Source of the DNA: Pseudomonas sp.
Lineage (GTDB): Bacteria > Pseudomonadota > Gammaproteobacteria > Pseudomonadales > Pseudomonadaceae
NCBI RefSeq assembly: GCF_030698175.1
Contig: NZ_JAUYNT010000011.1
Location: 4,748-68,747, forward strand
DNA length: 64,000 nucleotides
Direction of reading: 5' to 3'
The number at the start of each line of letters is the position of its first letter. Positions within the stretch are counted from its first letter, which is position 1. The notes under the pieces were generated by a model, which was not told where the DNA came from, did not search any database, and saw nothing but the letters and a program-made list of their open reading frames with translations. Positions 8,327-64,000 of this stretch are shown piece after piece. A program made the position numbers and the translations under genes.

Positions 8327-8345
8327 ATTCGCTAACTCGCAGACA

Positions 8346-8379: not shown

Positions 8380-8391
8380 ATGCCAGCAGAC

Positions 8392-9817: not shown

Positions 9818-10049
9818 TGCCAAGTCTCCGGTAAAAAAATCCGCGGCAAGCTTAACACAGGGTATTCCCCCCCCCATTGCGACGCATTTGACGAAATCAA
9901 TTACTCTTAGCTGTTAGCTCCGTCGCAAAATCACCGCCAACTATTAAGGCTCTGTTAAGCTGGCGCCGGATAACTGGCACACTTGCCGCATGACTAATAA
10001 GAAAATGTCTGTTTAACAGAGACTTATCTGTTCTTTTCGAGATTCGTGC

Positions 10050-10694: not shown

Positions 10695-10707
10695 ATGCAC
10701 CAGATCT

Positions 10708-10736
10708 AAAAAAACCGGCGCGAGCCGGTTTTTTTA
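10708..10736. terminator. Bidirectional intrinsic terminator between vfr and trpC
   Basis: AAAAAACCGGC-GCGA-GCCGGTTTTTTT. Confidence 0.85.
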
Positions 10737-10750
10737 TGCGCAGCATTTAC

Positions 10751-11587
10751 TCAGTCCGGATCGGCACCCAGTTGCACCGGCGCAGTACCGGGGAAAAACA
10801 AACGCTGCAACTCGGCGCCCGGATCTTGTGCGCGCATAAACGCCTCGCCGACCAGGAAGGCATGCACCTCGCTGATCTGCATCAGTTCGACATCGGCGCG
10901 ATTGAGGATGCCGCTCTCGGTGATCACCAGGCGATCACGGGGGATTTTCGGCAGTAAATCGAGGGTGACATCCAGGCTGACTTCGAAGTTATGCAAGTTG
11001 CGGTTATTGATGCCAATCAGCGGCGTATCCAGGGTCTGCAGCGCCCGCTCCAGCTCATCGCCATCGTGCACTTCAACCAACACATCGAGGCCGACGTCTT
11101 TGGCCACGCTGGCCAGCTCGGCCATTTGCGTGTCCGCCAAGGCCGAGACAATCAGCAGCACGCAGTCGGCGCCCAGGGCACGGGCCTCGACTATCTGGTA
11201 AGGGTCGATCATAAAGTCTTTGCGAATCACCGGCAGGCTGCAGGCCGCACGGGCTTGCTGCAGGTAGGCGTCGGCACCCTGAAAGAAGTCGATATCGGTC
11301 AGCACCGACAAACAAGCGGCGCCGCCACGCTGGTAACTGGCGGCCAGTTCGGCCGGATTGAAATCCTCGCGCAGCACGCCTTTGCTCGGCGAGGCTTTTT
11401 TAATTTCGGCGATCACCGCCGCTTCCTTACGCTTTACCCGTTCCTGCAAGGCATTGGCAAAACCGCGCGGTGCATCCGCGTCACGGGCCAATTGCTCCAG
11501 CGCAGACATGCTGACCAAGGCGCGACGCGCGGCCACCTCCTCGACTTTGCGGGCGAGGATTTGTTCCAAAATAGTGGGCAGGCTCAC
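10751..11587 (-). CDS. trpC: Indole-3-glycerol phosphate synthase
   Basis: [22 protein letters not shown] and GINNRNL motifs. Confidence 0.97.
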
Positions 11588-12633
11588 GCTTGATTCTCCA
11601 GCCGGAATACCGCAGTAAAGGATGCCAACTCGTCGATTTTCTCCAACGCCAGGCCGGTGTGCAGCGCGTCATGGGCCAGCGCTACGCCAGCGGCCAGGCT
11701 ATCGGCCAGGTCGGCGGCGTAGAGTGCGGCGCCGGCATTCAGCACTATCAGGTCGCCGGCTTTGCGGCCAATGTCGGTTTTGCGCCGCCCCAGGGCATCG
11801 CGAATCAACGCCAGGGAGGCTTGCGGGCCGTCGACTTCCAGCCCCAGCAGGGTTTGACTGCTGAGGCCGAAGTCTTCCGGGCGCACCTCGTACTCGGTGA
11901 TCTCACCGTCTTTCAATTCGGCCACATGGGTGGCGGCGGCCAGGCTGAACTCGTCCAGGCCATCGCGCGAATGCACCACCAACACATGCTTGCTGCCCAG
12001 CCGCTTGAGCACCTCGGCCAGCGGCCGGCACAGGGCCTGGCTGAATACGCCGACCACCTGATGACGCACGCCGGCCGGATTGGTCAGCGGCCCGAGCATA
12101 TTGAAAATGGTCCGCAGGCCCAAATCACGCCGTGGCCCGGCGGCGTATTTCATCGCCTGGTGGTGCACCTGGGCGAACATAAAACCGACCCCGACTGTGT
12201 CGATGCAACGCGCCACCTGCACCGGAGTCAGCTGCAGATAAATCCCGGCGGCCTCGAGCAAGTCGGCGCTGCCGCTATTGCCCGATACCGCCCGGTTGCC
12301 ATGTTTGGCCACCTTGCCGCCGGCCGCCGCCACCACAAAAGCGGCGGCGGTGGAGACGTTAAAGATATTGGCGCCATCGCCGCCGGTGCCGACCACATCG
12401 ACCACGTTATCCAGGCTGGGCAACTCGACCTGGCTGGCCAGCTCGCGCATCACCGAGACGGCACCGACTATCTCGTCGATGCTCTCGCTCTTCATGCGCA
12501 TGCCCATCAGAAAGGCGCCGATCTGCGCCTCGCTGCATTGGCCGGTCATGATTTCGCGCATCACGTCCTGCATCTCTTCGGTGGACAGGTCGAGCTGGGC
12601 GACGATTCGATTGAGGGCTTGTTTGATATTCAT
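11584..12633 (-). CDS. trpD: Anthranilate phosphoribosyltransferase
   Basis: [17 protein letters not shown] and KHGNRAVS motifs. Confidence 0.97.
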
Positions 12634-13226: not shown

Positions 13227-13373
13227 GTTAAAAACCAACCTTGTGCGCCTAGTGCGCGTGTAGTTAAAGCCTGCGGCTGACACCTGGCGAAATGGCCCTG
13301 TTTGAGCGGGCCTTTGGCGAGCAGGAACAGCTGTAACTTGTCGCGGGCGACGCCGTGGTCGCTCGCACAAAGA

Positions 13374-13418
13374 TCAAGTCCGCCAACGCCAGCAGGCGTG
13401 GCCTTTGATCAGGCGCAT
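13374..13418 (-). CDS. trpGDC leader peptide MRLIKGHACWRWRT (possibly 22 aa from GTG 13442)
   Basis: Trp-Arg-Trp-Arg codons ending about 150 nt upstream of trpG; matches the trpE leader. Confidence 0.75.
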   Translation of the reverse strand: MRLIKGHACWRWRT

Positions 13419-13470
13419 GAGGAGGGTGCTGCTGGTTTTCACTGGAATTTTCTCGTCTAGCAATCCGCTC

Positions 13471-13500
13471 ACAGTAGCCCAGGCGCGGGCTGCGGCGCAA
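13471..13500 (-). promoter_or_regulatory. Putative sigma70 promoter for the trpGDC leader
   Basis: TTGCGC-N18-TACTGT on the minus strand; near-identical boxes upstream of the trpE leader. Confidence 0.55.
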
Positions 13501-13564
13501 TCTTGATCGCCCCGCAGCCAGGCCAGTGCGGCGCCATTCTCCGCACACCACACGCGGCGGCGAA

Positions 13565-16500
13565 TCACTCGGCATCCTCTTGGTAGTCGCCCTTGAGCAG
13601 GTTCAGCAACGCATCGGCGTCCAGCTTGGCGCTGAGTTCACCGCCATCCAGCAGGCTGTCGGCCAGGGCGCGTTTTTTCGCGTGCAGGGCAACAATCTGC
13701 TCCTCGATGGTGTGTTCGGTCACCAGCCGGTAAATGGTCACCGGACGCAGCTGGCCCATGCGATGGGCACGGTCGCTGGCTTGGTCTTCCACCGCCGGGT
13801 TCCACCAGGGGTCGAGGTGGATCACATAGTCGGCGGCGGTCAGGTTCAGTCCGGTGCCGCCGGCTTTCAGGCTGATCAGGAAAATATCACCAGTACCGGC
13901 CTGAAAGGCATCCATCCGCGTCTTGCGGTCTTTTGGCGAGGTGGCGCCGTCCAGATACTGATAGTGGATGCCCTGCTCATCCAACCACTTACGCACGATG
14001 CTCAGGTGGTCAACGAACTGACTGAACACCAGCGCCTTGTGGCGGTTCTCCAGCAGCTCCGCGACTATTTCGGCGAAGGCCGCCAGCTTGCTACCGGCCA
14101 GCCCGGCGCCGGGCATGACCAGATTGGGGTGACAGCAAAAGCGCCGCAACCGGGTAATTTCCGCCAGCACCTGCAAGGATTTGTTCTGCCCTTGCGGGGC
14201 ATTTACCAACGACTGCAAGGCTTGTTGGCGCAGCGCCTCGTAGTAGTGCGCCTCTTCGGCAGACAGCGGCACCTTGTAGGTAATCTCGGTGCGCGGTGGC
14301 AACTCATCGAGCACCTGGCTCTTCAGCCGGCGCAAAATAAACGGCTGGATCAGCGCCTTCAGGGCCTTGCGGGCCGACTGCTCGCCGCGTTCGATCGGCG
14401 TGCTGAAGCGTTCGGCAAAACGCTCCTGGCTGCCGAGCAAGCCCGGATTGATAAAGCGAAACAGATTCCACAGCTCACCCAGGTGATTCTCCAGCGGCGT
14501 GCCGGTGGCGATCAGCTTGAAGTCCGCCTGCAAGCACATCGCCGCTTGCGAGCGTTTGCTGCTGGCGTTCTTGATCGCCTGGGCCTCATCCAGCACCACG
14601 CTGGTCCAGTGCTGGGCGGCAAAGGCCTGATCGTCTTGCTGCAGCAGGCCGTAGCTGGCCACCACCAAATCCAGCGGGCCAAGCCCTTCCAGGCTGCGGG
14701 TCTGCTGATAGTTATGCACTTTTAAGGTCGGGGCAAAACGCGCGGCCTCGGACAGCCAGTTAATCGCCACCGAGGTCGGCGCGATGACCAGTTGCGGCCC
14801 ACGGGGGGCGCGCAGCAGCATCAAGGCCAAGGCCTGCACGGTTTTGCCCAGGCCCATGTCGTCCGCCAGGCAGGCGCCGACGCCCCACTCGGCCAGGCGC
14901 GCCAGCCAGTCGAAGCCTTCGCGCTGGTAGTCACGCAATTCGGCTTGCAGGGTGCTGGGCAATTGCGGTTGAAAATTCTTCAGCGACTCGAGCTTGTCCA
15001 GATGCGCCTGCCAGCTGGCGTCGGCCTGAAACTCGCCGGCCTCCTGGGCCAAGCCGGCCAGCAAGGGCGCGGTGAGCAGATTCAAACGCAGGCCGTCATC
15101 GCCGACGCGGTCGGCCAGGTGCGCCAGTTCATCCAGGTGTTTGCGCAAGCTGCTGCTGAGCGCCAGCCAGTCTTGCTCGCCCAATTTAAGGAAGCGGCCC
15201 TTGTTGGTTTTCAGCAGCTCGAGCAACTGGCGCAGGTGCAATACCCGGCCATCGTCGAGCTGCACTTCGCCGGCCAGCACAAACCAGTCACCTTGCTGCT
15301 TCAAGCCCAGCTTGAGCTGGCCCATGCCCGGCCGCGCCTTGATGCGCATCCGCTCGCCTTCCGGCCACACGCATTGCAGCCGCTCGCCATCCAGCAGTTG
15401 CAGCTCACTGAGCACCTGTAAGGCATCTTGCGGGTCTTCCAGCTGCCACTCCTGGCCGTCGCTGTCGGCCTGGGCCAGCGCCGGGCAGGCCTGCAGCACC
15501 CACTCTAGGGTGGCGGCTTCGGCGTCCAGATCGCGACTGGCTTGCAGGGCCTTGCCGTCTTGCTCGCCGAGCACATTAGCCAGGCCAACGCCCGGTTTAA
15601 ACCAGCTGCTGTGGGCCAGCGGGCGCACCAGCAACTGCAAGCGCAGGCCGCCCTGCAACGGCAATAAATGCGCATACAGCATGGGGTCGGCCACCACGCA
15701 ATCGAGGTGACTGGCTAATTCGGGCAGGTCGGAATGAATCGGCAACAGCGGCGCTATGGCGCTGATTGCCTCGATCAGCTGCGCCTTGCCGGCCTGGGGC
15801 ACGCTCAGGCCGTGGCCGATGATGTCGATAATCTGCCGCAGCTCGCGACTGATCGGATAGGCCAGCAGCCGTGTCGGGGTTTCTTTATAGAGCAGCAGCG
15901 TGCTGTGATTGTGCAGCTCGCGGGGTTCGAGCTTGATATGGATCTGCTCGGCCTCGGATTTCAGCTGCAAGCTGGCGTGGCCCAGAGCCAGATCAATCCG
16001 CACCTCGGGCGCATCGGCCCAAAACAGCGCCGGATGGCCGATCAGGCGCGGCAAGGCCAGCTCCGCCGGCAGCTCGTAACGCACGCCGCCGTAATGATCG
16101 GCGCTGGACTGAATCATGCGGATGGCTTGCTGATCTTGCTCGAGCAAGAAGTCCAGGCTGTCGCCCTCCTCCAGCAAGCGCTTGAGTGCCACCACCCGGC
16201 CCTTGCTCCACTGGCCCTTGACGCTGAGCTTTTGCTCGCGCGGCTCGACATGGGTGGAATAGCCATTGGCGCTGACCAGCCACGCCAGGCGACTGCTGTT
16301 TGGCGTGGCGCTGGCAGTGGCTGCGCGCTTGCCCGGCTTCAGCAGGGTCAGCGCAGCCAGTGCATGTTGCCAAGCTTCTTGGCGCTGGTAGAGACTGACC
16401 AAAGGCTGTAGGCCCTTGTCGCGGTACCAGGCCGGCGGCTGCCACGCCAGGCCGAACTGCTGGGCCAGCAAGGCCTCCACCTCGACGGCCAACCACTGAT

Positions 16501-17671
16501 AACCGTCGCTCTCCAATTGCCCGGCAAAGGCCTCTAACTGCAGTCGCCAAACGGGACGACGCACCACCTCGGCATCCGCCCAGTACAGCGCTAGCGCCAG
16601 CAGCAGACCATCGAAACCATTGAAGGCGATATGGCCGACAAAGTCCTGGGTCAGCCCTTTGCTGCTGCCGAGCAATTGCTCGACCAGCAGCAGCAAGGCC
16701 GGATAGCCACGACCATAGTGCTCACGAACACCAAGGCTCACCGCTTGTTTAAGGGTCGGGTAAGACTGCGGGTCGGCACTGGCCAGCAGGGCCAAACAGT
16801 AGAAGCCATTGAGCACCGGCGGCAGGTCCAGCTTGCGTTTCTTACTCTGCCGTTTGATCGACGCCGTCCACTCATGCAGCGCCGCCAGGGCCGGCGCGTA
16901 ACTGCCGCCGAGCACCGCCGCGATAAACTGCTGCATGGTGGCCAGGGCACTGTTACCCAGCGCGGCAAACTGCGGCCAGTCGCCCCGCCAGAGTGCTTGC
17001 TGCAACAGTTGCAGGGCCAGATCGGTATGCTCAGGATTACGCGCCAGCAGTACCAGGCCGAGCCGATAGGCCTCATCGGCCGGCTGCAAGTGCTGGTTCA
17101 GTTGCTGTAGATAGTCTTCCAGTAGCAAGCATTGCACCGCCGGGAACAGGCTGGCAAACACTTGTTTACCGGCCTCATCGGCGAGCAATTGCTCGGCGGG
17201 CGATTCAACCTGCCAGTCTTCCAGGCGGTCCAGGCACTGCTGCAAATCAAAGGCCTGCCCCTGCAGCAGCGCCAGCCACAGGCTCTGCAACTGGAACTCT
17301 TTGGTCGGCGCATCCCAGGCGGTGCGCGGCGCGACCAGACTGCCACGCAGAATCTCCAGCCACTGGCTCTTGCTGGCGTCGCTACTGAGTTGCTGCAGCA
17401 CCAGATTGCGTCGCCCTGGCAGCAGGCAAATCGGCTGACCAGTACCGCCGCTATGGCTAAGCCACTCGAGGCGCTGCAAAGGCTCGAGAATCTCGCTCAA
17501 GGCGGCGGCGTCAAAGGCGCGGGTGGCCGAAACGCGGGCGCCCATGTCGCGCAGCTGGCGGACCAAGGCGGTTTTGCTCTGCCCTGGGAAAGACAGCGCC
17601 AGCACATACAGCAGCGCTTTGTAGTTCTCCGGCAACACCGCCAAGGCAGAAGGAGTTATGGCAGCAGGCAT
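13565..17671 (-). CDS. Large SNF2/SWI2-family ATPase (1368 aa)
   Basis: LADDMGLGKT, LDEAQAIKN, ATGTPLENH, SLKAGGTGLNL and DPWWNPAVEDQASDRAHRMGQ motifs in the C-terminal ~470 aa. Confidence 0.93.
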   Translation of the reverse strand: MPAAITPSALAVLPENYKALLYVLALSFPGQSKTALVRQLRDMGARVSATRAFDAAALSEILEPLQRLEWLSHSGGTGQPICLLPGRRNLVLQQLSSDASKSQWLEILRGSLVAPRTAWDAPTKEFQLQSLWLALLQGQAFDLQQCLDRLEDWQVESPAEQLLADEAGKQVFASLFPAVQCLLLEDYLQQLNQHLQPADEAYRLGLVLLARNPEHTDLALQLLQQALWRGDWPQFAALGNSALATMQQFIAAVLGGSYAPALAALHEWTASIKRQSKKRKLDLPPVLNGFYCLALLASADPQSYPTLKQAVSLGVREHYGRGYPALLLLVEQLLGSSKGLTQDFVGHIAFNGFDGLLLALALYWADAEVVRRPVWRLQLEAFAGQLESDGYQWLAVEVEALLAQQFGLAWQPPAWYRDKGLQPLVSLYQRQEAWQHALAALTLLKPGKRAATASATPNSSRLAWLVSANGYSTHVEPREQKLSVKGQWSKGRVVALKRLLEEGDSLDFLLEQDQQAIRMIQSSADHYGGVRYELPAELALPRLIGHPALFWADAPEVRIDLALGHASLQLKSEAEQIHIKLEPRELHNHSTLLLYKETPTRLLAYPISRELRQIIDIIGHGLSVPQAGKAQLIEAISAIAPLLPIHSDLPELASHLDCVVADPMLYAHLLPLQGGLRLQLLVRPLAHSSWFKPGVGLANVLGEQDGKALQASRDLDAEAATLEWVLQACPALAQADSDGQEWQLEDPQDALQVLSELQLLDGERLQCVWPEGERMRIKARPGMGQLKLGLKQQGDWFVLAGEVQLDDGRVLHLRQLLELLKTNKGRFLKLGEQDWLALSSSLRKHLDELAHLADRVGDDGLRLNLLTAPLLAGLAQEAGEFQADASWQAHLDKLESLKNFQPQLPSTLQAELRDYQREGFDWLARLAEWGVGACLADDMGLGKTVQALALMLLRAPRGPQLVIAPTSVAINWLSEAARFAPTLKVHNYQQTRSLEGLGPLDLVVASYGLLQQDDQAFAAQHWTSVVLDEAQAIKNASSKRSQAAMCLQADFKLIATGTPLENHLGELWNLFRFINPGLLGSQERFAERFSTPIERGEQSARKALKALIQPFILRRLKSQVLDELPPRTEITYKVPLSAEEAHYYEALRQQALQSLVNAPQGQNKSLQVLAEITRLRRFCCHPNLVMPGAGLAGSKLAAFAEIVAELLENRHKALVFSQFVDHLSIVRKWLDEQGIHYQYLDGATSPKDRKTRMDAFQAGTGDIFLISLKAGGTGLNLTAADYVIHLDPWWNPAVEDQASDRAHRMGQLRPVTIYRLVTEHTIEEQIVALHAKKRALADSLLDGGELSAKLDADALLNLLKGDYQEDAE

Positions 17672-17791
17672 ACAGAGGTTCCAACAACAGAGACAGCGAA
17701 AATTAAAGCGCTAAACCCATGCCCGCGAGCATCGGTCTGAGCAAATACCTAAGCGGGTTGGCGCCACACCGGCGCGAACCCGTTGGGGTGA

Positions 17792-19282
17792 CTAGCCACG
17801 GTTCTTGTGGGTTTGCTCGGCCAAGGCGACCGCGCGAAACATCGCCCGACGCTTGTTCAGGGTTTCTTCCCACTCCAGCGCCGGCACCGAGTCGGCGACT
17901 ATGCCGCCACCGGCCTGCACGTGCAGCTCACCGTTTTTGATCACTGCGGTGCGAATCGCGATGGCGGTGTCCATATTGCCGTTCCAGGCCAGGTAACCGA
18001 CCGCGCCGCCGTAGATGCCGCGCTTGACCGGCTCCAGCTCGTCGATGATTTGCATGGCGCGAATCTTCGGCGCGCCCGACAAGGTGCCGGCCGGCAAAAT
18101 GGCGCGTAACGCATCCATGGCGTTGAGGCCTTTCTTCAGCTGGCCGTTGACGTTGGAGACGATGTGCATGACGTTGGAATAGCGCTCTATCACCATTTTT
18201 TCGGTGACTTTCACCGAGCCGGTCTCCGACACCCGGCCGGCATCGTTGCGACCCAGGTCGATCAGCATCAGGTGCTCGGCGATCTCCTTGGCATCCGAGA
18301 GCAGGTCTTGCTCCAGCGCCAGATCGGCCTCCTCGGTGGCGCCGCGCGGGCGGGTGCCGGCAATCGGCCGTACCGTCACCAGACCATCTTCGACCCGCAC
18401 CAGCACCTCGGGGGAGGAGCCGACCACATGGAAGTCGCCGAAGTTGAAAAAATACATATAGGGCGTTGGATTAAAGCAACGCAGCGCCCGGTACAGATCG
18501 ATAGGCGCTGCGGCAAAGTCGATGCTCATGCGCTGCGATGGCACCACCTGCATGCAGTCGCCGGCTAGGATGTACTCCTTCACGGTATCGACCGCACGCT
18601 CGTAATCTTCGCGGCTAAAGCTGGAGCGAAACAGCGGCTCCGGGGCATCGGTCAAGGCCGACAAATCCAGACCCTGGCGCGGGGTGATTGGCTGGCGCAG
18701 TTGTTCCAGCAACTCATTCAGACGTGCCTGGGCCGACTCATAGGCATCTGCCTCGCGGGGGTCGGCCAGGACGATGGCGTGCAGCTTGCCGGCGAGGTTG
18801 TCGAACACCACCACGGCGTCCGAGACCATCAACAGAATGTCCGGATTACCCAGCGGGTCGGGATTGGGGCACTTGGCCAATTTCTTCTCGACGTAACGCA
18901 CGCAGTCGTAGCCGAAGTAGCCGACCAGGCCGCCATTGAAGCGCGGTAAACCGGCAACCGGCGCCACCTGATAACGCTCTTTGAAGGCTTCGACAAAGGC
19001 CAGCGGGTCTTCACATTCATGGGACTCCACCACCACATCATCAATGCTGACCGTCACGCTGTGCTCGTAGGCGCGCAGCACGGTGCGGCACGGCAGGCCG
19101 ATGATCGAATAACGGCCCCATTTCTCGCCGCCCTGTACCGACTCCAATAAGTAGGTGTAGGGCGCGTCGGCCAGCTTTAAATACAGCGACAGCGGAGTAT
19201 CGAAATCGGCCAGGGTTTCCAAGGCCACAGGTATGCGGTTATAGCCGCCAGCGGCTAACTGCAGGAATTCTTCGCGGGTCAT
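17792..19282 (-). CDS. trpE: Anthranilate synthase component I
   Basis: [28 protein letters not shown] and [12 protein letters not shown] motifs. Confidence 0.97.
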
Positions 19283-19305: not shown

Positions 19306-19449
19306 AAAAACCTATCTAATATCTGCTGCGCTTGGTTATGCGGCGTTGAAACCAGGCTCGGACTGCTCATTTACAACTCGTAAACTCCGCGTCCTCGCCT
19401 GATTTCGCCTTGCCTAACCTGCGCTCGCAACGATATTAAATTAGGTTTT
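19306..19449. mobile_element. ERIC-like MITE (~144 bp) between the trpE leader and trpE
   Basis: Imperfect terminal inverted repeats AAAACCTATCTAATATC / AAAACCTAATTTAATATC; nested internal palindrome CAGGC..GGAC..TTTAC-AACTC-GTAAA..GTCC..GCCTG. Confidence 0.65.
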
Positions 19450-58178: not shown

Positions 58179-58255
58179 GGGCCCATAGCTCAGTTGGTTA
58201 GAGCAGAGGACTCATAATCCTTTGGTCCACGGTTCGAGTCCGTGTGGGCCCACCA
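58179..58255 (+). tRNA. tRNA with CAT anticodon, most likely tRNA-Ile2
   Basis: 77 nt; GGGCCCA/TGGGCCC acceptor stem, CTCATAA loop, GTTCGAG T-loop, encoded CCA; C4/C5 and position after rpoD favour Ile2 over Met. Confidence 0.93.
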
Positions 58256-58260
58256 GCTTC

Positions 58261-58286
58261 AAAGCCCCGCAATGCGGGGCTTTTTT
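58261..58286 (+). terminator. tRNA intrinsic terminator
   Basis: AAAGCCCCGC-AAT-GCGGGGCTTTTTT. Confidence 0.88.
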
Positions 58287-58383
58287 ATGCACGCTAGAAA
58301 AGCAGCTAGAGCAGTCCTATAGTCCAAAGGTACAAATTCAGTACAGTGCCGGTACAGCAGCACACCTTTGGAGCAGAAAAAAG

Positions 58384-59457
58384 ATGGCCACCATCGTCAA
58401 AACGGAAGCCGGCACATGGAAAGCCCTAGTGCGCAAAACAGGCTGGCCGACCAATACCAAAACCTTCCGCACCAAGCGCGACGCCGAAGACTGGGCACGC
58501 CGCACCGAGGACGAAATGGTCAGGGGCGTGTACATCCAGCGCAGCGGCTCCGAACGCTTGACCTTGGAAATGGCCCTGAAGCGCTACCTCAGCGAGGTCA
58601 GCCCAACCAAGAAGCCGACCACCCAGCGCGCAGAAGCCACCAAAGCCCAGCAGCTGATCAGCCACCTGGGCAAATACTCCATGGCCGCCCTCTCCGCTGA
58701 AATCATCGCCGGCTACCGCGATGCCCGCCTGGCCTCGATCACCAATCGCGACAAACCCACCAGCAACAACACCGTGCGCCTAGAGCTGGCCCTACTCAGC
58801 CACCTGTTCACCGTAGCCATTCAGGAATGGGGCCTGGGCCTCAGCTTCAACCCAGTGCTAAACATACGCAAACCAAGCCCCGGCGAAGGCCGTGACCGCC
58901 GTTTATCCGCAGAAGAAGAACGCCGCCTGCTGACAGCCGTAAACAATCACAGCAACCCCATGCTCGGCTGGATCGTCCGCATCGCGCTGGAAACAGGCAT
59001 GCGCTCATCCGAAATCACATCCCTGCGCAGACATCAGGTTGATATGAAAAAGCGCGTGGTGCGCCTCTCAGACACCAAGAACGATAGCGCACGCACCGTC
59101 CCACTCAGCAAGTGGGCCACAGAAACATTCCAGACAGCGCTGAACAACCCGATACGGCCGACTGACTGTGACCTGGTGTTCTTTGGCGAGCCAGGCAAAA
59201 ACGGCAAGCGCAGCCCCTACGCCTTCACCAAGACATGGGGACTACTGAAAACCAAACTCGGCATGCCGGATCTGCGCTTCCACGACCTGCGGCATGAGGC
59301 GGTAAGCCGATTGGTCGAAGGCGGCCTATCCGACCAGGAGGTGTCCGCCATCAGCGGGCACAAGTCGATGCAGATGCTGAAGCGCTACACGCACCTGCGG
59401 GCAGAGGACTTGGTAGGGAAACTAGATAGAATTACGAGCAGCGGGCTAGCCGATTGA
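58384..59457 (+). CDS. Tyrosine recombinase/integrase
   Basis: Catalytic set TGMR, TKN, FHDLRHE, SGHKS and KRYTH intact. Confidence 0.96.
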   Translation: MATIVKTEAGTWKALVRKTGWPTNTKTFRTKRDAEDWARRTEDEMVRGVYIQRSGSERLTLEMALKRYLSEVSPTKKPTTQRAEATKAQQLISHLGKYSMAALSAEIIAGYRDARLASITNRDKPTSNNTVRLELALLSHLFTVAIQEWGLGLSFNPVLNIRKPSPGEGRDRRLSAEEERRLLTAVNNHSNPMLGWIVRIALETGMRSSEITSLRRHQVDMKKRVVRLSDTKNDSARTVPLSKWATETFQTALNNPIRPTDCDLVFFGEPGKNGKRSPYAFTKTWGLLKTKLGMPDLRFHDLRHEAVSRLVEGGLSDQEVSAISGHKSMQMLKRYTHLRAEDLVGKLDRITSSGLAD

Positions 59458-59581
59458 CTGAAATCTCGTTGGTCTGTGCTGCAACTGAAAGCCCTCAGGT
59501 GTTTGCTCATCAGTACTGCTCCCCCAAAAAGGATGGACAAGTCCGTACTTTTTGGGGGAGCCCAGCTTAAATCTTTCAAGC

Positions 59582-60880
59582 TCAAGACAGCCCATATAGC
59601 TGCTGCTTCAGCAGACTCGTTGAGATTTCATCAGCATCACGACGAACCAGTACTGCAACCTCGCGCTCCAGCAACCCCATGTGCTGTGCAATTTCCGGGA
59701 TTGGCATGCCCTGCGCGTACAGTGATTTCAGCTCAGTAAATACAGCATCACTCACTGGCGACTCGCCGGTCGTAGGGTCGATACATGCTCTTGCCCGACG
59801 CAGCCTGACTAAATCATCAAGCCCCTTCCAAGCCTTAGATACTGCCTGGCGAGAAATCCCAAGCCGCCTGGCAATTTCCGCCTGATGAAGCCCTTCCTTA
59901 TGAAGAACCCAAATCTTTTCACGAAGGCCTGGATTGGTTGCCGGCGATGCCGTCACGGGACGTAACTTGGAGTGCACTTGGTCATAAGCAGTCTTGCGCA
60001 GCTCCTGTGTATCGGCACCATTAGGCAACGGAAACCGAAACAAAAAGCCGGAACGCCCTCGCCCCCTCAAAGCCTCTAGCTCACGTCGGAAAGCCTGCTT
60101 GTATGGAAGATCACGGCGGTATCGTGATTTGGGCTCACCAGGATCGTGGACTTCACAATATCGGTTACTCAGCTTTCTCCACTTAGCTTCTGGCGAATAC
60201 TTGCTAGGGCCTTCCTCTGTGCAAACCAACGAACTCCACCTCTTCGTCATACGCCAGCAGAGCTCACAATACGAGGCCGCCTGCGGCCGAGTGCGATCAT
60301 CACTCAACCAATTGCCGAAGTAGATGGAGCGACCTGGACGCAGCGCAGCAAGAACCGAGAGCAGCCGCATTGCAGTATCCAACGTACTGCAAAAGTGGTG
60401 ACAGGCAGGCTCATATGGATCGCTCACAGCGTCCTGAGCACTTCGAATCACATACCGTAGATTTGTATACCAAAGCCGAAGATTAGAAACCTGCCAGTCC
60501 ACATCCATGGTGTCTGGTGGCTTCATCTCAAACTGATCTATCTTGCTGATTCTTAGCTCTGTCCGGTCATACCCACTCGGGCACTCAATTATCACGGGAT
60601 CAGCTCGCCATTCAGGTGGACTCTTCCCCATGCCAGATAGCTTCATGTTGCCCAACAGCTGATTGGGCCAGCCCCCTGAATAACTTTCGACAGCATGCGT
60701 AAAGGCTTCATCTAGAATCGACCTGACCCCTGCCCAAACAGAATACCTACGGGATGTCAGGCTATACGAAGAGGTCAGTTTTGCCGAAAACAATGCAATG
60801 CACTCAGCAAAGCCCGGATCACACTGATCAAATGCTGTGAGCTGCTGCAAGTGGACAGCGAAGTTTTCAGCTCGTCTCAT
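59582..60880 (-). CDS. Hypothetical DNA-binding protein (CxxC..CxxH motif plus two C-terminal HTH-like segments)
   Basis: YCELCWR..YCEVHDP; GLHQAEIARRLGISRQAVSK; GMPIPEIAQHMGL. Confidence 0.75.
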   Translation of the reverse strand: MRRAENFAVHLQQLTAFDQCDPGFAECIALFSAKLTSSYSLTSRRYSVWAGVRSILDEAFTHAVESYSGGWPNQLLGNMKLSGMGKSPPEWRADPVIIECPSGYDRTELRISKIDQFEMKPPDTMDVDWQVSNLRLWYTNLRYVIRSAQDAVSDPYEPACHHFCSTLDTAMRLLSVLAALRPGRSIYFGNWLSDDRTRPQAASYCELCWRMTKRWSSLVCTEEGPSKYSPEAKWRKLSNRYCEVHDPGEPKSRYRRDLPYKQAFRRELEALRGRGRSGFLFRFPLPNGADTQELRKTAYDQVHSKLRPVTASPATNPGLREKIWVLHKEGLHQAEIARRLGISRQAVSKAWKGLDDLVRLRRARACIDPTTGESPVSDAVFTELKSLYAQGMPIPEIAQHMGLLEREVAVLVRRDADEISTSLLKQQLYGLS

Positions 60881-60970
60881 GTCAACCTAAAACCATAACT
60901 CTATGTCTCCATCCTAGGCGTATTCATGCGTAACGTTCAACCTACATTCCACATGTAGGCGTAACCACCA

Positions 60971-61189
60971 ATGACCACCGAAGAACTAATCTTGAGCAGC
61001 AACGGCGGCTCGCCCCTGCTATCCCTCGGGCAGGTTGCTGAAATTCTCCATCGCAGCCCGGAAGGGCTCCGCATAACGCTCTCCGGGGACAATGAGATTG
61101 CCCGGAAGCTAAAGCCCGCACGGATAAAGATCGGTCGGCGCGTCTACTTTCGAGTGGGTTCTATCGCTCAATTCATTGATGAGGCCTGA
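60971..61189 (+). CDS. Small excisionase/AlpA-like DNA-binding protein
   Basis: LLSLGQVAEILHRSPEGLR...IKIGRRVYFR pattern; 72 aa; directly upstream of rep. Confidence 0.75.
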   Translation: MTTEELILSSNGGSPLLSLGQVAEILHRSPEGLRITLSGDNEIARKLKPARIKIGRRVYFRVGSIAQFIDEA

Positions 61190-61199
61190 GCGAGTCCCG

Positions 61200-62093
61200 A
61201 TGTACCTGACTGACAAAATTGCTCGGATGCAACAGGTCGCATTAGAGCGCCCAAAACCGTGCGTAGAGCCTGCGCTGTCAGTCGCAGCAATGCCTGTTTA
61301 TCAGATGCCATTTTGGCCTGAAGAGACCCGCGGCGTGCCCAATGCGCTGCTCCGCTCAGCCTTATTTTCCGCAACGACTAAAAGTACACGCCGCTACGTA
61401 GACCGAGAGCTGCTGCACGCTCAGGGAGACATGCGAATTCGTTATAGCGGCCCCGGCTTGGGACAGGGTGATTTAGACGTTTGGGAAACAGTGCTGCACC
61501 TTGCCCGCTCTTACACCCAGAGCTTCGAGATACGAACGACCAGTTACCAACTCCTGAAGCTACAGAGCAAAGCCGATGCCGGTACAAATCGTAAAGCGCT
61601 GCACAGCTGCATCGTCCGCCTAAAGGCTTCCGCTGTGGAGATCGAACACGGCCCCTACAGTTATGTGGGTAGCCTGATTGACGAAGCTTTCCGAGATATG
61701 GCCACGAATGAATACGTCATACGTTTGAACCCAAGGCTCTGCGGCCTCTTCGTGCATGGCTCATTCACACGAGTAGACTGGGATGTCAGGCGCTCGCTTT
61801 CTGGTAAACCACTGGCGCAATGGCTGCATGGCTATTTCTCCAGCCACGCCAAGCCATTCCCGATCGGTATCGAAACACTTTTGCGCCTCTCAGGCAGTAA
61901 CGATCAATCAGTACATAGCGGCGTGCAAAATGTGCGCAGAGCACTGGATGCGCTGGCCCGCTCCAGTAATGAGCATGCTCAACTCTTCAGTTACACGATC
62001 CACAATAAAACGGTGCATGTCGTTCGGCAGCCAACCAAAGCGCAGCGTAAACACCTGGGAAACCGGTCGCTGCGCAGTCAAAAAAAGCAATAG
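61200..62093 (+). CDS. trfA: TrfA-family replication initiator (297 aa)
   Basis: QMPFWPEETRGVPNALLRSALF, YSGPGLGQGDLDVW, YVGSLID and LAQWLHGYFSSH motifs. Confidence 0.85.
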   Translation: MYLTDKIARMQQVALERPKPCVEPALSVAAMPVYQMPFWPEETRGVPNALLRSALFSATTKSTRRYVDRELLHAQGDMRIRYSGPGLGQGDLDVWETVLHLARSYTQSFEIRTTSYQLLKLQSKADAGTNRKALHSCIVRLKASAVEIEHGPYSYVGSLIDEAFRDMATNEYVIRLNPRLCGLFVHGSFTRVDWDVRRSLSGKPLAQWLHGYFSSHAKPFPIGIETLLRLSGSNDQSVHSGVQNVRRALDALARSSNEHAQLFSYTIHNKTVHVVRQPTKAQRKHLGNRSLRSQKKQ

Positions 62094-62178
62094 AAGATAC
62101 CGTAGCAGTGGCTAGAAAATACCGAAGCGCTGGCTAGGACATACCGAAGCACTGGCTAGAGAACCCCGAAGCATTGGC
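62091..62178 (+). repeat. Four tandem 22-bp iterons (putative oriV)
   Basis: TAGAAGATACCGTAGCAGTGGC, TAGAAAATACCGAAGCGCTGGC, TAGGACATACCGAAGCACTGGC, TAGAGAACCCCGAAGCATTGGC. Confidence 0.88.
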
Positions 62179-62397
62179 TAATTTTATGGCCGGCAAACTG
62201 CCCTGCGGCCCCCGAAACCATTGGCCTCCGTCACCAAAGGCAGAAGCCTCTAATCCTTTCTAATCTATTTAGAATCAAGAACATCTACCGCACATCACCA
62301 CCGGCAGGAACAGGGTAAACAGCTCTGCAACAGCGTGGACGGGGTATCACCCGTCGCCATAGCCATTACCATCTAGAGCCCCCCGAGAACATTCGCC

Positions 62398-62714
62398 ATG
62401 CTTCCTATGCACAATCCACCACACTCAGGCGAAGCCCTACGTGCAGACGTGCTCCCAGCGCTGGGGCTAACAGCTGTGAGCCTGACTAAGCGCCTAGGCT
62501 GCCGCCCAGCCTACTTTCAGCAGTCATGCTATGCGTTACCCCCATAAGCCACGAACTCGCTATACAGCTCGAATTTGCAGGCTTGGGCAGAGCCGGCCAT
62601 TGGCTAGCCCAGCAAGCCGCCTATGACCGCTGGCAAGCGCAACAAAAAGCCCTCATAAATGAGGGCTTTCCGAATAGATCACGGTCAGCGCTGTTCGTAG
62701 TCAGATCGGCGTAG
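62398..62714 (+). pseudogene. higA: HigA-like Xre antitoxin split by a 1-nt frameshift near 62515
   Basis: Frame 1 MLPMHNPPHSGEALRADVLPALGL..KRLG stops at 62547; the -1 frame continues SAVMLCVTPISHELAIQLEFAGLGRAGHWLAQQAAYDRWQA. Confidence 0.7.
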
Positions 62715-63015
62715 CCTCCTGGGAACGTCGAAGCTTGTTAAACAAGAGTGCTGCCAACCCGGCATAAAATACAACGACACTAAAAAATCCGCTCAGGGAC
62801 GTCCCTTTAGCCACGTCAACACAATCCTGTAAAACAACTATCCAAGTTACAAGCAAGCACAAATTCAGCAGAGTACAATTTGCCGTTTGTGCAGCTATGT
62901 TTTCAACGTTCAAAGCAGCACGAACACATCTAACATTCTTTTGCGTCAGAGTAGCCACTATGAAAGTTGCTACCACAGCAATAGAGCCCACCAATAATAA
63001 TAGATACAGATTCAT
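62701..63015 (-). CDS. Small membrane protein (about three hydrophobic segments)
   Basis: 104-aa ORF starting 2 nt after the virB6 stop; AT-rich. Confidence 0.6.
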   Translation of the reverse strand: MNLYLLLLVGSIAVVATFIVATLTQKNVRCVRAALNVENIAAQTANCTLLNLCLLVTWIVVLQDCVDVAKGTSLSGFFSVVVFYAGLAALLFNKLRRSQEATPI

Positions 63016-63016
63016 T

Positions 63017-64000
63017 TTAACCTCGCGAAACATTATTAAAGCGCGATGCAGTTAGCTGCCTATACGCCGCCATAGGAATACCAGCCACTCTTGCTGTACT
63101 ACCTGGATTCTGGCTAGCCCATCTTGCATTACTATCTTTTTGGCGACGAGCCGCACGCATATCAGACAGCGTTTTACCTGTAGCAATGTTTTTTGCTCCA
63201 ACCACTCCACCTTTCGCCTTGTTGTATACCGCCCCTGCAGCGCCCAACGTGCTGATCGCGACTCCACCACCTAATGCAGACGCGACAGAGTTAACCTGCG
63301 CAAGCAGTAGCGAACCGATAACACAAATAGCCGCAGCGGGAACAATATCACTCACTTGCGGATCAAGCTTTATGCCTGCACCACTCTCCGTGAGATACAT
63401 TTCAAGAACCGCCATCACCAATTTTATACATGCGCCGGCAAGTACAACGGTAAAACCATAGTTTAGAGCCTGACCTAACCAGCCCTCAAAAAAACGCTTT
63501 GTCGAATCGAACATCAGCAACACTATAAATATCGGTCCAAGGGCAAGCAGAATAGCCAGCATGAATTTAGAAAGGCATAGAAGAAACGCGGCATAAGCCG
63601 TCAAAGCCAAACCAACAGTCCAAACGGCAACAGCGCAAAGAATCAATCCAATGTGCGGAATAGTCGATGCGGTGCCCTTGACCCAAAAAGATGCGCCTAG
63701 CGAATACATCTGTGACATCAGACCATCGAGATATGCTGCCGAACCTGAGCCGGGCGCACCTTGCACAACAAGCGCCGCCAGCGCCTCTGGAAAACGCCAA
63801 ATAAAATCGACTACAGAATCATTGTAATAACCAACGTTCAGGGCTAACCCCGCGATCAGGGAGAGTCGCATCACACGCCACGCAAAATCCGTAATAAGCT
63901 CATCAATCACACCTCGCATCATCATCAATCCGTGAATGATGAAATACAGCACTAAAAGTTGTGAGGTGACCGGTCCGATTGAATCCATTACCCTGACCAC
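63017..64000 (-). CDS. virB6: VirB6/TrbL type IV secretion protein (5' end beyond the window)
   Basis: Multi-TM; LAILLALGPIFIVLLMFDSTKRFFEGWLGQALNY and VASALGGG motifs. Confidence 0.88.
   Translation of the reverse strand: MVRVMDSIGPVTSQLLVLYFIIHGLMMMRGVIDELITDFAWRVMRLSLIAGLALNVGYYNDSVVDFIWRFPEALAALVVQGAPGSGSAAYLDGLMSQMYSLGASFWVKGTASTIPHIGLILCAVAVWTVGLALTAYAAFLLCLSKFMLAILLALGPIFIVLLMFDSTKRFFEGWLGQALNYGFTVVLAGACIKLVMAVLEMYLTESGAGIKLDPQVSDIVPAAAICVIGSLLLAQVNSVASALGGGVAISTLGAAGAVYNKAKGGVVGAKNIATGKTLSDMRAARRQKDSNARWASQNPGSTARVAGIPMAAYRQLTASRFNNVSRG

What the first reader, a model, noticed from the sequence alone, without database searches (positions are those of the whole stretch)
58179..64000. 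tRNA(CAT)-integrated element with its own TrfA replicon and a VirB6 gene: candidate replicative mobilizable island
Seen: intact integrase, a Zn-finger/HTH gene divergent from xis-like and trfA genes, iterons, AT-rich tract, decayed higA, and virB6 on the opposite strand. Established: TrfA plus iterons is the IncP-type replication module, and integrative mobilizable elements excise, replicate transiently and use a helper's T4SS. Inference: a compact island pairing a TrfA-like rep with a non-IncP iteron sequence that replicates after excision. The 297-aa TrfA is close in size to the short TrfA-33 form lacking the N-terminal extension. I cannot assign it to a named island family.
Basis: partly seen in the sequence, partly recalled or inferred. 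Interest (0 to 1): 0.8.

Follow-up and report, generated by a model that had tools for sequence, protein, structure and literature searches.

The report
Mobilizable defence island with own replicon
This is a 19-kb genomic island in a tRNA gene that carries phage-defence genes, can probably cut itself out and copy itself, and appears built to ride on one kind of conjugative plasmid; the kind of element is already known, but this helper type and this replication gene are new for it.

Summary
The window holds only the left third of a 19,231-bp island, bounded by a 47-bp exact direct repeat of the tRNA(CAT) 3' half. The right copy lies 13.4 kb past the window end.

- **Backbone:** tyrosine integrase; a 432-aa regulator with tandem HTHs and an invariant CxxC..CxxH motif; a 72-aa HTH_17 protein; a TrfA-family initiator with four 22-bp iterons; frameshifted higA; virB6, a lipoprotein gene and virB5; and an oriT-like region. 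No relaxase was found.
- **Cargo:** a type II restriction-modification system, an HTH regulator with a NERD protein, and a Lamassu system.
- **Predicted helper:** four features point to pXF51/pMBUI6-type (PromA-like) plasmids, not IncP-1. These are VirB5/lipoprotein/VirB6 (61/31/53% identity to pMBUI6), a 15-nt nick-site core, four copies of the plasmids' dispersed palindrome, and 11-bp repeat arrays. The host genome has none of the helper genes searched for.
- **Function:** dN/dS of 0.05-0.16 shows the orphan transfer and replication genes are under selection.

The design matches published integrative mobilizable elements (GIsul2, PIMEs, SGI1). I rate it a new variant of a known kind. The scan's only earlier notes on this element are on this same window.

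The parts
58179..58255 (+). tRNA with anticodon CAT, the integration target. ARAGORN calls it Met; it is probably tRNA-Ile2 (lysidine).
   Evidence: ARAGORN and Rfam tRNA at 73.6 bits. The genome has four CAT tRNAs: two identical initiators, one that resembles E. coli elongator Met (comparison from my memory), and this one. The Ile2 reading is therefore by elimination.
58210..58256 (+). attL core: 47-bp exact direct repeat running from the anticodon loop to one base past the CCA end. Its partner, attR, lies beyond the window at L007 19389-19435 = C27:82188-82234.
   Evidence: It is the longest exact repeat shared with the attR region. Islands in three other genomes have partial tRNA repeats starting at the same position.
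58384..59457 (+). Tyrosine integrase, 357 aa.
   Evidence: Pfam Phage_integrase 4.1e-30. It is 91-97% identical in islands at the same tRNA in other species, with dN/dS 0.03-0.04.
59518..59561 (.). Inverted repeat (21-nt arms) between the convergent int and regulator genes; a likely two-way terminator.
   Evidence: the repeat finder pair I3, L007 1466-1509, 90% complementary. The terminator role is inferred.
59582..60880 (-). 432-aa regulator with a CxxC...CxxH motif and two C-terminal HTHs, divergent from the xis-like/trfA operon.
   Evidence: Pfam HTH_23 and related families at residues 320-357, and Terminase_5-like HTH at 386-422. C205, C208, C242 and H245 are invariant in 16 homologues. 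About 110 homologue clusters exist, mostly on Pseudomonas chromosomes.
60971..61189 (+). 72-aa HTH_17 DNA-binding protein. It occupies the AlpA/Xis slot and overlaps the trfA start by 14 nt.
   Evidence: Pfam HTH_17 3.8e-5, below the cut-off. Sources name homologues 'DNA-binding' or 'plasmid-related' protein. An excisionase role is inferred from position and from the PIME alpA precedent.
61176..62093 (+). TrfA-family replication initiator (305 aa from TTG, 297 aa from ATG).
   Evidence: Pfam TrfA 6.8e-17. 23% identity to R751 TrfA, E 2e-16. 48-49% identity to the trfA genes of small plasmids pAcX50a and pBR1.1. dN/dS 0.12-0.14.
62091..62178 (+). Four 22-bp iterons (consensus TAGAAAATACCGAAGCACTGGC); the putative oriV.
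   Evidence: TRF score 110 and the repeat finder family D2. 22-bp arrays sit just after trfA in 10 of 15 related loci, 9 of them with an ACCG core, and after trfA of plasmid pAcX50a as 5 perfect copies.
62245..62285 (.). Short AT-rich stretch after the iterons; a possible unwinding element.
   Evidence: Read directly from the sequence. It is weak: not visible at 300-bp resolution, and no DnaA box lies nearby.
62398..62714 (+). Frameshifted higA antitoxin remnant; no higB partner was seen.
   Evidence: The two ORF pieces hit TIGR02607 positions 1-35 and 45-80 and are 75-76% identical to an intact HigA (72.8 bits) in the Aquipseudomonas guryensis island.
62701..63033 (-). 110-aa predicted membrane ORF downstream of virB6; function unknown.
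   Evidence: It is conserved in position in four sister islands, but dN/dS is 0.36-0.77. No family hit.
63017..64000 (-). VirB6/TrbL-family mating-pore protein. The full gene is 354 aa (L007 4965-6029), and its first 27 codons lie past the window end. The rest of the island also lies beyond the window and is listed with L007 coordinates in section 2 of the full report: lipoprotein gene, virB5, 11-bp repeats, nick-site core, four palindromes, orf142, cargo and attR.
   Evidence: Pfam TrbL 1.3e-46. The best plasmid match is pMBUI6 VirB6 at 53%. There is no BLASTP similarity to IncP-1 R751 TrbL. dN/dS 0.05-0.10. It is the only VirB6 in the genome.

Best explanation
This is an integrative mobilizable element (IME) of 19,231 bp in the 3' half of a tRNA(CAT) gene. 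It has no relaxase, coupling protein or full type IV secretion system of its own. I read it as a parasite of pXF51/pMBUI6-type (PromA-like, MOBP/MPF_T) conjugative plasmids.

Proposed cycle:
1. When such a plasmid enters the cell, the divergent regulatory pair (the 432-aa Zn/HTH protein and the 72-aa HTH_17 protein) turns on excision and replication.
2. The integrase recombines the 47-bp attL and attR cores, giving a circle.
3. TrfA fires the four-iteron origin, so the circle is not lost.
4. The helper's relaxase nicks the island's copy of the plasmid nick-site core, and the helper's coupling protein and pore export the strand.
5. The island's own VirB5, lipoprotein and VirB6 replace or join the helper's subunits in the pore, probably altering entry exclusion in the island's favour.
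6. The four plasmid-type palindromes, and perhaps the 11-bp repeat arrays, bind the helper's ParB/KorB-like and StbA-like proteins, tying the island to the helper's partition or control circuit.
7. In the recipient the island integrates into the same tRNA and delivers its restriction-modification, NERD and Lamassu defence genes.

Shown here: the boundaries, the gene families, the sequence ties to the plasmid group, selection on the genes, and no hit in this genome to any of the helper genes searched for. Inferred: every dynamic step.
For: - **Boundaries:** a 47-bp exact repeat, with GC of 50.4% in the island against 59.7% in the genome. The same attB position is used by islands of about 10-25 kb in three other species.
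- **No self-transfer genes:** no relaxase domain in any ORF scanned. The genome has no VirB4, only this one VirB6, and no homologue of the pMBUI6 relaxase, NikA-like protein, StbA/B, VirD4 or VirB4.
- **Ties to the plasmid group:**
  - VirB5 61%, VirB6 53% and lipoprotein 31% identical to pMBUI6, the best of 72,556 plasmids for VirB5 and VirB6.
  - The nick-site core is identical to that in the pMBUI6 oriT gap and invariant in 5 islands. It also lies next to relaxosome genes in pXF51, in a Pseudomonas plasmid contig and in the P. carbonaria island.
  - The palindrome occurs 4 times in the island, 12 in pMBUI6, 8 in pXF51 and never in R751, and it co-occurs with one ParB lineage.
- **Replicon:** TrfA family. 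The same trfA-then-22-bp-iteron layout occurs in plasmid pAcX50a and in 10 of 15 related loci, with a shared ACCG core in pAcX50a and 9 of those loci. Sister islands carry a different initiator in the same slot.
- **Selection:** dN/dS is 0.05-0.16 for VirB5, VirB6 and TrfA.
- **Precedents:**
  - PIMEs excise, replicate about 8-fold and transfer with IncP helpers, and have four iterons after the rep gene (10.64898/2026.01.12.698999).
  - GIsul2's TrbJ-K-L genes are proposed to reshape the pore (PMC5704250).
  - SGI1 carries mimics of its helper's parS sites (PMC10954446).
Against:
- The small HTH protein is not demonstrably an excisionase.
- No DnaA box lies near the iterons, and the AT-rich tract is short.
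- No significant hairpin flanks the nick-site core (z = -1.2), whereas the R751 oriT gap has a palindrome just upstream of its ATCCTGC motif.
- The closest sequenced plasmid is only 53-61% identical in VirB5 and VirB6, so the true helper is not identified.
- The protein that binds the palindromes is not identified; the ParB link is co-occurrence only.
- An empty site in a close relative could not be shown.
Confidence: 0.7

Rival explanations
1. It is a PIME in the strict sense: an IncP-1-dependent island like GIsul2 or PIME1, induced and mobilised by IncP-1 plasmids such as pB10 or RP4.
For: It has the same module order and content as PIMEs, and by the published rule its gene orientation is PIME3-like. 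The nick-site core contains the ATCCTGC motif also present in the R751 oriT gap. It carries defence cargo including Lamassu, as PIME1 of E. coli RHB23-C07 does.
Against: VirB6 has no BLASTP similarity to R751 TrbL, and VirB5 matches TrbJ only over 51 N-terminal residues. The flanks of the nick-site core match pMBUI6, not R751. The palindrome is absent from the 50 kb of R751 searched. The rep gene is TrfA, not the RSF1010-like repA of PIMEs. The attB is a tRNA, not guaA.
Confidence: 0.1
2. It is a decayed integrative conjugative element or integrated plasmid: virB5, virB6 and trfA are leftovers with no present role, and the island is now just a fixed defence island.
For: higA is frameshifted. 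No helper is present in the genome. orf110 evolves almost neutrally. The P. carbonaria relative has a truncated integrase.
Against: The same reduced set (virB5, lipoprotein, virB6, oriT core, palindromes, orf142) recurs intact in at least 5 genomes. dN/dS is 0.05-0.16 for VirB5, VirB6 and TrfA. No pseudogene fragments of other virB genes were seen between the modules. Integrase, att sites and iterons are intact.
Confidence: 0.1
3. The TrfA-iteron unit does not drive post-excision replication. It acts instead as an incompatibility or plasmid-exclusion device against TrfA-type plasmids, or it is silent, and the island spreads without replicating or by another route such as transduction.
For: No DnaA box and only a short AT-rich tract lie next to the iterons. 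Chromosomal iterons could titrate a plasmid's TrfA. The roughly 20-kb size is also compatible with packaging, as the PIME authors speculate.
Against: A replication initiator occupies the same slot in every sister island even when its family differs, which fits a need for replication rather than targeting of one plasmid group. The rep gene of a PIME was needed for amplification and efficient transfer. No capsid- or packaging-related genes are present.
Confidence: 0.08

Closest known systems
PIME family (Pseudomonadota Integrative Mobilizable Elements; Perta et al., bioRxiv 10.64898/2026.01.12.698999)
   Same: Integrase, a small HTH regulator next to a divergent large regulator (the PIME1 hallmark), a rep gene followed directly by four iterons, VirB5/VirB6-family genes without the rest of the T4SS, an oriT that copies the helper's, a size of about 20 kb, and more than half the element given to defence cargo including Lamassu. 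By the paper's orientation rule this island is PIME3-like.
   Different: The replicase is TrfA, not the RSF1010-like RepA. The transfer proteins are VirB-type from pXF51/pMBUI6-like plasmids, with no detectable similarity of VirB6 to IncP-1 TrbL. The attB is tRNA(CAT), not guaA. The island also has helper-type palindromes and 11-bp repeat arrays that the paper does not describe. Whether it is among the 1,136 listed PIMEs could not be checked, because the supplement is not held.
GIsul2 and the 'IncP islands' (Harmer 2017; Guedon et al. 2017, PMC5704250)
   Same: These are IMEs with a tyrosine integrase, replication genes and just the three adjacent TrbJ(VirB5)-TrbK(exclusion lipoprotein)-TrbL(VirB6) genes. 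GIsul2 also lacks a relaxase. They are proposed to reshape the helper's pore and evade exclusion.
   Different: Their transfer genes are related to IncP-1 alpha, they integrate at guaA, and they carry RepA/RepC. GIsul2 carries sul2 and ars cargo rather than defence systems.
SGI1 and SGI1-like islands (PMC5389848, PMC7433901, PMC10954446, PMC8409611)
   Same: SGI1 has no relaxase, carries its own mating-pore subunits and a replicon activated by the helper, and holds two mimics of the helper's parS sites that bind the helper's ParB. The yicC-specific relatives encode a TrfA homologue.
   Different: SGI1 depends on IncA/IncC helpers with an MPF_F pore and supplies TraN/TraH/TraG subunits. There is no sequence relationship, and the integration sites (trmE, dusA, yicC) differ.
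pMBUI6 (KC170282) and pXF51 (NC_002490): PromA-like MOBP/MPF_T plasmids
   Same: Closest relatives of the island's VirB5, lipoprotein and VirB6. They share the nick-site core next to their relaxosome genes and the dispersed palindrome TTTTCGCGnnCGCGAAAA (12 and 8 copies).
   Different: They are complete conjugative plasmids with a relaxase, VirD4, VirB1-11, ParAB/KorA and their own RepA. They have no integrase, TrfA or orf142 homologue.
TrfA replicons of small plasmids pAcX50a (Azotobacter chroococcum) and pBR1.1 (Delftia lacustris)
   Same: TrfA is 48-49% identical. In pAcX50a, five 22-bp iterons with the same ATACCG core follow trfA directly. In pBR1.1 a small gene overlaps the trfA start, as here.
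   Different: They are free plasmids of 6.5-10 kb without an integrase. pBR1.1's upstream gene ('repression protein F') is not homologous to the island's HTH_17 protein.

Membership tests
PIME (as defined in 10.64898/2026.01.12.698999: co-occurrence of int, alpA, repA, trbJ, trbL) | Integrase at one end | tested here: met
   Pfam Phage_integrase 4.1e-30, next to attL.
PIME | alpA-type small regulator | tested here: inconclusive
   A 72-aa protein hits HTH_17 at 24.3 bits, below the 27-bit cut-off, and does not hit Phage_AlpA. Homologues are named only 'DNA-binding' or 'plasmid-related'. The authors' own HMM was not available.
PIME | repA replicase, with homologues in RSF1010 | tested here: not met
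   The only replication gene is TrfA family (PF07042, 6.8e-17), with a sub-threshold RepC hit. No RepA-type gene was found in any ORF scanned.
PIME | trbJ and trbL homologues without the rest of the T4SS | tested here: inconclusive
   Met at family level (PF07996 2e-31; PF04610 1e-46), and VirB4 is absent from the genome. However, VirB6 has no BLASTP similarity to R751 TrbL, and the NCBIfam TrbJ model scores 23.8 against a cut-off of 286. Whether the authors' HMMs would reach these proteins is unknown.
PIME | oriT resembling that of the helper plasmid | tested here: met
   The nick-site core is identical to that of pMBUI6 and contains the ATCCTGC motif also found in R751. The helper type differs from IncP-1.
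PIME | Helper-induced excision, replication and mobilisation | not testable with these tools
   This needs mating and qPCR experiments. Read-level evidence was unavailable.
GIsul2-type relaxase-less IME with TrbJ-TrbK-TrbL | Three adjacent genes (VirB5, small exclusion-type lipoprotein, VirB6) and no relaxase, coupling protein or other pore genes | tested here: met
   The lipoprotein's exclusion function is not tested.
GIsul2-type relaxase-less IME with TrbJ-TrbK-TrbL | Transfer genes related to IncP-1 alpha; integration at guaA; RepA/RepC | tested here: not met
   The best relatives are pMBUI6 and pXF51. The attB is tRNA(CAT). The rep gene is TrfA.
TrfA-type iteron replicon | TrfA-family initiator | tested here: met
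   PF07042 at 61.9 bits against a cut-off of 22. 23% identity to R751 TrfA over 282 residues, E 2e-16.
TrfA-type iteron replicon | Array of directly repeated initiator-binding sites next to the gene | tested here: met
   Four 22-bp repeats, with comparative support from 10 of 15 relatives and from plasmid pAcX50a. By my recollection, the sequence differs from the 17-bp RK2 iterons.
TrfA-type iteron replicon | DnaA boxes and an AT-rich unwinding region | tested here: not met
   No TTATCCACA within one mismatch near the iterons. Only a roughly 40-nt AT-rich stretch is present.
TrfA-type iteron replicon | Autonomous replication | not testable with these tools
   This needs cloning of trfA and the iterons into a non-replicating vector.
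Integrative conjugative element (self-transmissible) | Own relaxase, coupling protein and complete T4SS | tested here: not met
   No such domains in the island. No VirB4, VirD4 or relaxase homologue in the genome.

The most novel reading that the evidence does not exclude
This island and its sisters form a separate lineage of hijacker elements specialised on PromA-like (pXF51/pMBUI6-type) broad-host-range plasmids, a helper class for which I found no described IME. They copy four layers of the helper at once: the nick site, the VirB5/exclusion-lipoprotein/VirB6 trio, the ParB/KorB-type operator palindrome, and StbA-type repeat arrays. The replication initiator sits in a freely exchangeable cassette (TrfA here, a phage-type initiator in sister islands). 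That would make a natural, convergent counterpart to SGI1/IncC and PIME/IncP in environmental Pseudomonas, spreading defence systems.
Probability: 0.4. Interest if true: 0.55.

Novelty: new variant of a known kind. Interest (0 to 1): 0.4.

Why it matters
If the model holds, the 'island that pirates a conjugative plasmid' strategy has arisen on a third, unrelated helper family besides SGI1/IncC and GIsul2-PIME/IncP. It would combine the same tricks: oriT mimicry, pore-subunit substitution, a private replicon and mimicry of the helper's partition sites. That would argue these tricks are a general solution and not a peculiarity of one system.

It also gives a concrete, testable pairing between environmental Pseudomonas islands and PromA-like plasmids, which are often called cryptic. 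And it identifies a vehicle that moves restriction-modification and Lamassu defence systems between species at a conserved tRNA site.

It does not open a new category, and nothing here is surprising to specialists in mobile elements.

Tried and rejected
- **The genome search closed:** the VirB5 and VirB6 of the pMBUI6-like plasmid contig of Pseudomonas sp. 286 (L063) could not be compared with the island's.
- **Empty-site search in relatives, using the right flank:** the nearest genomes are only 65-69% identical there and not syntenic, so no empty attB was obtained.
- **orf142:**
  - No Pfam, NCBIfam, PHROG or PADLOC hit.
  - No plasmid homologue.
  - A confident helical model with no PDB fold match.
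  - I considered a TraJ-like or NikA-like relaxosome role and dropped it for lack of any similarity.
- **DnaA box near the iterons:** none found.
- **Hairpin next to the nick-site core:** not better than shuffles.
- **Promoter and terminator scan of the backbone:** fewer hits than in shuffles, uninformative.
- **Rfam:** only the tRNA.
- **PIME supplementary tables:** not held, so membership in the published list is unchecked.
- **IncP-1 as helper:** rejected as the leading idea after direct comparison with R751.
- **Phage-satellite reading:** rejected because there are no packaging or capsid-related genes while conjugation parts are present.
- **Literature search for a PromA-dependent IME:** found none in the held library. 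This is not proof that none exists.
- **First submission of this report:** They are listed in section 2 of the full report instead.

Full report
**1. What is there**

The window is contig C27:4748-68747 of a 4.55-Mb, 42-contig genome. dnaG and rpoD are followed by a tRNA with anticodon CAT at 58179-58255.

A search of the whole genome with the finding's DNA found a second, partial copy of the tRNA 19 kb downstream, outside the window. Alignment and an exact-match scan show a 47-bp perfect direct repeat, ACTCATAATCC...GGGCCCACCAG. It runs from the anticodon loop to one base past the CCA end, at window 58210-58256 and at C27:82188-82234.

The element between the repeats is 19,231 bp, with 50.4% GC against 59.7% for the genome. 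The finding's 5.8 kb is therefore its left third.

In Aquipseudomonas guryensis, Pseudomonas congelans and Ectopseudomonas oleovorans, the same tRNA is followed about 19, 25 and 10 kb away by a partial repeat that starts at the same nucleotide. In the first two the adjacent integrase is 97% and 91% identical to this one. This is recurrent site-specific integration, not a chance repeat.

**2. Gene content, including the parts beyond the window**

Locus L007 is C27:62800-82799. An L007 position plus 58052 gives the window-equivalent coordinate.

Inside the window:
- Tyrosine integrase.
- A convergent 432-aa protein with two C-terminal HTHs.
- Divergent from it, a 72-aa HTH_17 protein whose end overlaps the start of a TrfA-family gene.
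- Four 22-bp iterons starting at the trfA stop codon.
- A frameshifted higA.
- On the minus strand, a 110-aa membrane ORF and virB6.

Beyond the window:

| Feature | L007 coordinates | Notes |
|---|---|---|
| virB6 (whole gene) | 4965-6029 (-) | runs 81 nt past the window end |
| 78-aa lipoprotein gene | 6034-6270 (-) | lipobox LLAGC; TrbK/Eex slot |
| virB5 | 6264-6977 (-) | |
| AT-rich 11-bp-period repeats | 7103-7295 | GC 0.38-0.40 |
| Nick-site core CTAGTGCAGGATAGG | 7327-7341 | |
| Four palindromes TTTTCGCGnnCGCGAAAA | start 7428, 7464, 8027, 8071 | flank orf142 |
| orf142 | 7548-7976 (+) | |
| orf264 | 8255-9049 (+) | |
| PstI/BsuBI-type endonuclease and methylase | 9722-12627 (-) | |
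| HTH gene and NERD/Zn-ribbon gene | 13360-14673 (+) | |
| Lamassu LmuA(Cap4)-LmuC-LmuB | 14841-19084 (+) | GC about 0.40 |
| attR | 19389-19435 | |

No relaxase, coupling protein or other T4SS gene was found in the island. The genome has no VirB4 and no second VirB6. It also has no homologue of the relaxase, NikA-like protein, StbA/B, VirD4 or VirB4 of the closest plasmid.

**3.

- *Zn-finger/HTH:* C205, C208, C242 and H245 are invariant in 16 homologues down to 31% identity.
- *Decayed higA:* the two ORF pieces match the two halves of TIGR02607 and an intact HigA in the A. guryensis island.
- *Iterons:* confirmed, with comparative support. 22-bp arrays follow the trfA homologue in 10 of 15 related loci, and 9 of them share an ACCG core (mostly ATACCG) while the remainder of the unit varies with the protein. 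The 10-kb plasmid pAcX50a, whose TrfA is 49% identical, has five perfect 22-bp repeats, GATACCGTCGCAGCAGGTAGGC, 22 nt after trfA.
- *TrfA:* it is only 23% identical to R751 TrfA, so this is a distant, non-IncP branch of the family.
- *Weak points:* the AT-rich tract is about 40 nt, there is no DnaA box, and the 'xis' label rests on a sub-threshold HTH_17 hit and on position.

**4. Which plasmid the transfer parts come from**

VirB6 and VirB5 find their best match among 72,556 plasmids in one record, pMBUI6 (KC170282), at 53% and 61% identity. The next matches are Xylella pXF51-type plasmids.

The lipoprotein is 31% identical (E 2e-11) to an unannotated ORF in the same virB5-virB6 gap of pMBUI6. 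Against IncP-1 R751, VirB6 has no detectable similarity to TrbL, and VirB5 matches TrbJ only at the N-terminus.

pMBUI6 is described as a PromA-like broad-host-range plasmid with a backbone close to pXF51 (PMC4290620).

**5. oriT**

A DNA search with the non-coding region hit pMBUI6 at 89% identity over 47 nt. The hit lies in the gap between a stbA-like/stbB operon and a nikA-like gene plus relaxase, which is where oriT lies in such plasmids.

- The 15-nt core CTAGTGCAGGATAGG is invariant in five islands and pMBUI6 while the flanks diverge.
- On the other strand it reads CCTATCCTGCAC. pXF51 has CCTATCCTGC next to mobC-relaxase.
- R751 has CACATCCTGCCC in its traJ-traK gap. That the nick falls after ATCCTG in IncP plasmids is my recollection of the literature, not something tested here.
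- A scan of one genome for each of 185,579 species with the core plus conserved flank bases returned only 10 loci. Among them are a pMBUI6-like plasmid contig in Pseudomonas sp. 286, with the core between the nikA-relaxase genes and stbA-stbB, and the P. carbonaria island, with the core next to a nikA-like gene.
- No significant hairpin flanks the core in the island.

**6. Two further plasmid-type signals**

*The palindrome.* The 18-bp palindrome TTTTCGCGnnCGCGAAAA occurs four times around orf142 and only once elsewhere in the 4.55-Mb genome. It occurs 12 times in pMBUI6, 8 times in pXF51 and never in the 50 kb of R751 searched.

The three plasmids recovered through this palindrome (P. hydrolytica, P. 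mendocina, Massilia putida) are among only 23 plasmids in the collection that encode a homologue of the pMBUI6 ParB-like protein.

PromA plasmids have a korA-incC-korB control region. I therefore infer that the palindrome is the ParB/KorB-type site of this plasmid group. SGI1's mimics of the IncC parS sites are a direct precedent (PMC10954446).

*The repeat arrays.* The AT-rich stretch between virB5 and the nick-site core is built of 11-bp-period repeats. These recall the StbA-binding stbDRs beside R388 oriT. One sister island has ATGCATCATCA repeats there. This is resemblance only.

**7. Function rather than decay**

The block orf110 / virB6 / lipoprotein gene / virB5 / nick-site core / palindromes / orf142 recurs intact in four other genomes.

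| Gene | dN/dS |
|---|---|
| Integrase | 0.03-0.04 |
| VirB6 | 0.05-0.10 |
| VirB5 | 0.07-0.16 |
| TrfA | 0.12-0.14 |

The modules are exchangeable:
- Two islands with the same integrase and transfer block carry a phage-type replication initiator instead of TrfA, and lack the 432-aa regulator.
- One island has a very distant TrfA/RPA-like gene.
- P. carbonaria and P. congelans have the regulator / HTH_17 / TrfA module without virB5 and virB6.

A replication initiator after the small HTH gene is thus a constant slot, which fits a need to replicate once excised.

**8. Comparison with what is known**

The design is that of published IMEs:
- GIsul2 and the IncP islands carry just TrbJ-TrbK-TrbL and rep genes. 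They are proposed to reshape the IncP pore and evade exclusion (PMC5704250).
- The PIME preprint shows experimentally that such elements excise, amplify about 8-fold and transfer only with IncP helpers. It also shows they need int, both regulators and the rep gene, have four iterons just after the rep gene, copy the helper's oriT and carry defence cargo.
- SGI1 adds pore-subunit substitution, helper-triggered replication and parS mimicry.
- TrfA homologues are reported in yicC-specific SGI1-like islands.

Against the PIME definition, this island lacks the RSF1010-like repA, and its VirB6 shows no BLASTP similarity to IncP-1 R751 TrbL. It also integrates at a tRNA instead of guaA. The authors themselves foresee variants with non-homologous analogues of a core part.

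I therefore file it as working like a PIME, GIsul2 or SGI1, but as a new variant tied to another helper lineage and not as a demonstrated member.

**9. Limits**

No dynamic step is shown.
- The genome search closed.
- The true helper, the inducing signal, the role of orf142 and the protein that binds the palindromes are all unknown. orf142 is helical, with no fold match.
- The scan's only earlier notes on this element are on this same window.

Noticed in passing
window 58179-58255: ARAGORN labels the target tRNA Met(CAT). The genome's other CAT tRNAs are two identical initiators and one that resembles E. coli elongator Met, so by elimination this single-copy gene is probably tRNA-Ile2 (lysidine-modified CAU). 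Integration rebuilds it from the island's own copy of the 3' half.
   Followed up: partly
window 58257-58290 and L007 19436-19470: The terminator hairpins after attL and attR differ by compensatory changes (CCCCGCAATGCGGGG versus CCGCGCACTGCGCGG). The island therefore brings its own tRNA 3' end plus a working terminator. Similarity between the two ends extends 108 nt at 87% identity, well beyond the 47-bp core.
   Followed up: partly
L007 6036-6066 and 6266-6296: A 31-nt direct repeat (87% identity) covers the 3' ends of the lipoprotein gene and of virB5. Both proteins end in ...FVKR(K/E)GW. The reason is unknown; it may reflect past recombination or a shared C-terminal signal.
   Followed up: no
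L065 (P. helleri NZ_WIWC01000077.1, 3,360-bp contig, assembler coverage 3932x): A tiny, very high-coverage contig carries the same nick-site core. It is probably a small high-copy plasmid that uses the same relaxase class as the island.
   Followed up: no
L009/L040 (CAZKMS010000113.1): A 19.8-kb contig binned as 'uncultured Verrucomicrobiaceae' carries the same tRNA and an 80-100% identical island backbone with different cargo. It is most likely a mis-binned Pseudomonas-type contig.
   Followed up: partly
L010/L066 (Pseudomonas carbonaria NZ_CAJFCI010000056.1): A sister island has the regulator / HTH_17 / TrfA / iteron module, the nick-site core, the palindromes and orf142. In place of virB5 and virB6 it has a nikA-like relaxosome accessory gene (47% identical to pMBUI6's), and its integrase is truncated.
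   Followed up: partly
G028 C1:5347481-5357967 and L042 (E. oleovorans CP152345): This genome has a roughly 10-kb element at the tRNA(CAT) site. Separately, the virB6 / lipoprotein / virB5 / oriT / orf142 block sits 1.2 Mb away, next to a different integrase (37% identical) and a very distant TrfA/RPA-like gene.
   Followed up: no
window 62701-63033: orf110, downstream of virB6, is conserved in position but evolves almost neutrally (dN/dS 0.36-0.77). It may be a fast-evolving membrane partner of VirB6 or not a real gene. pMBUI6 has a VirB7-like lipoprotein ORF in that place instead.
   Followed up: partly
L055 (Delftia lacustris pBR1.1) 3308-4388: In this 6.5-kb MobQ plasmid the trfA homologue is preceded by a small 'repression protein F' gene that overlaps its start. 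This is the same overlap geometry as the island's HTH_17 gene and trfA, although the small proteins are unrelated.
   Followed up: partly
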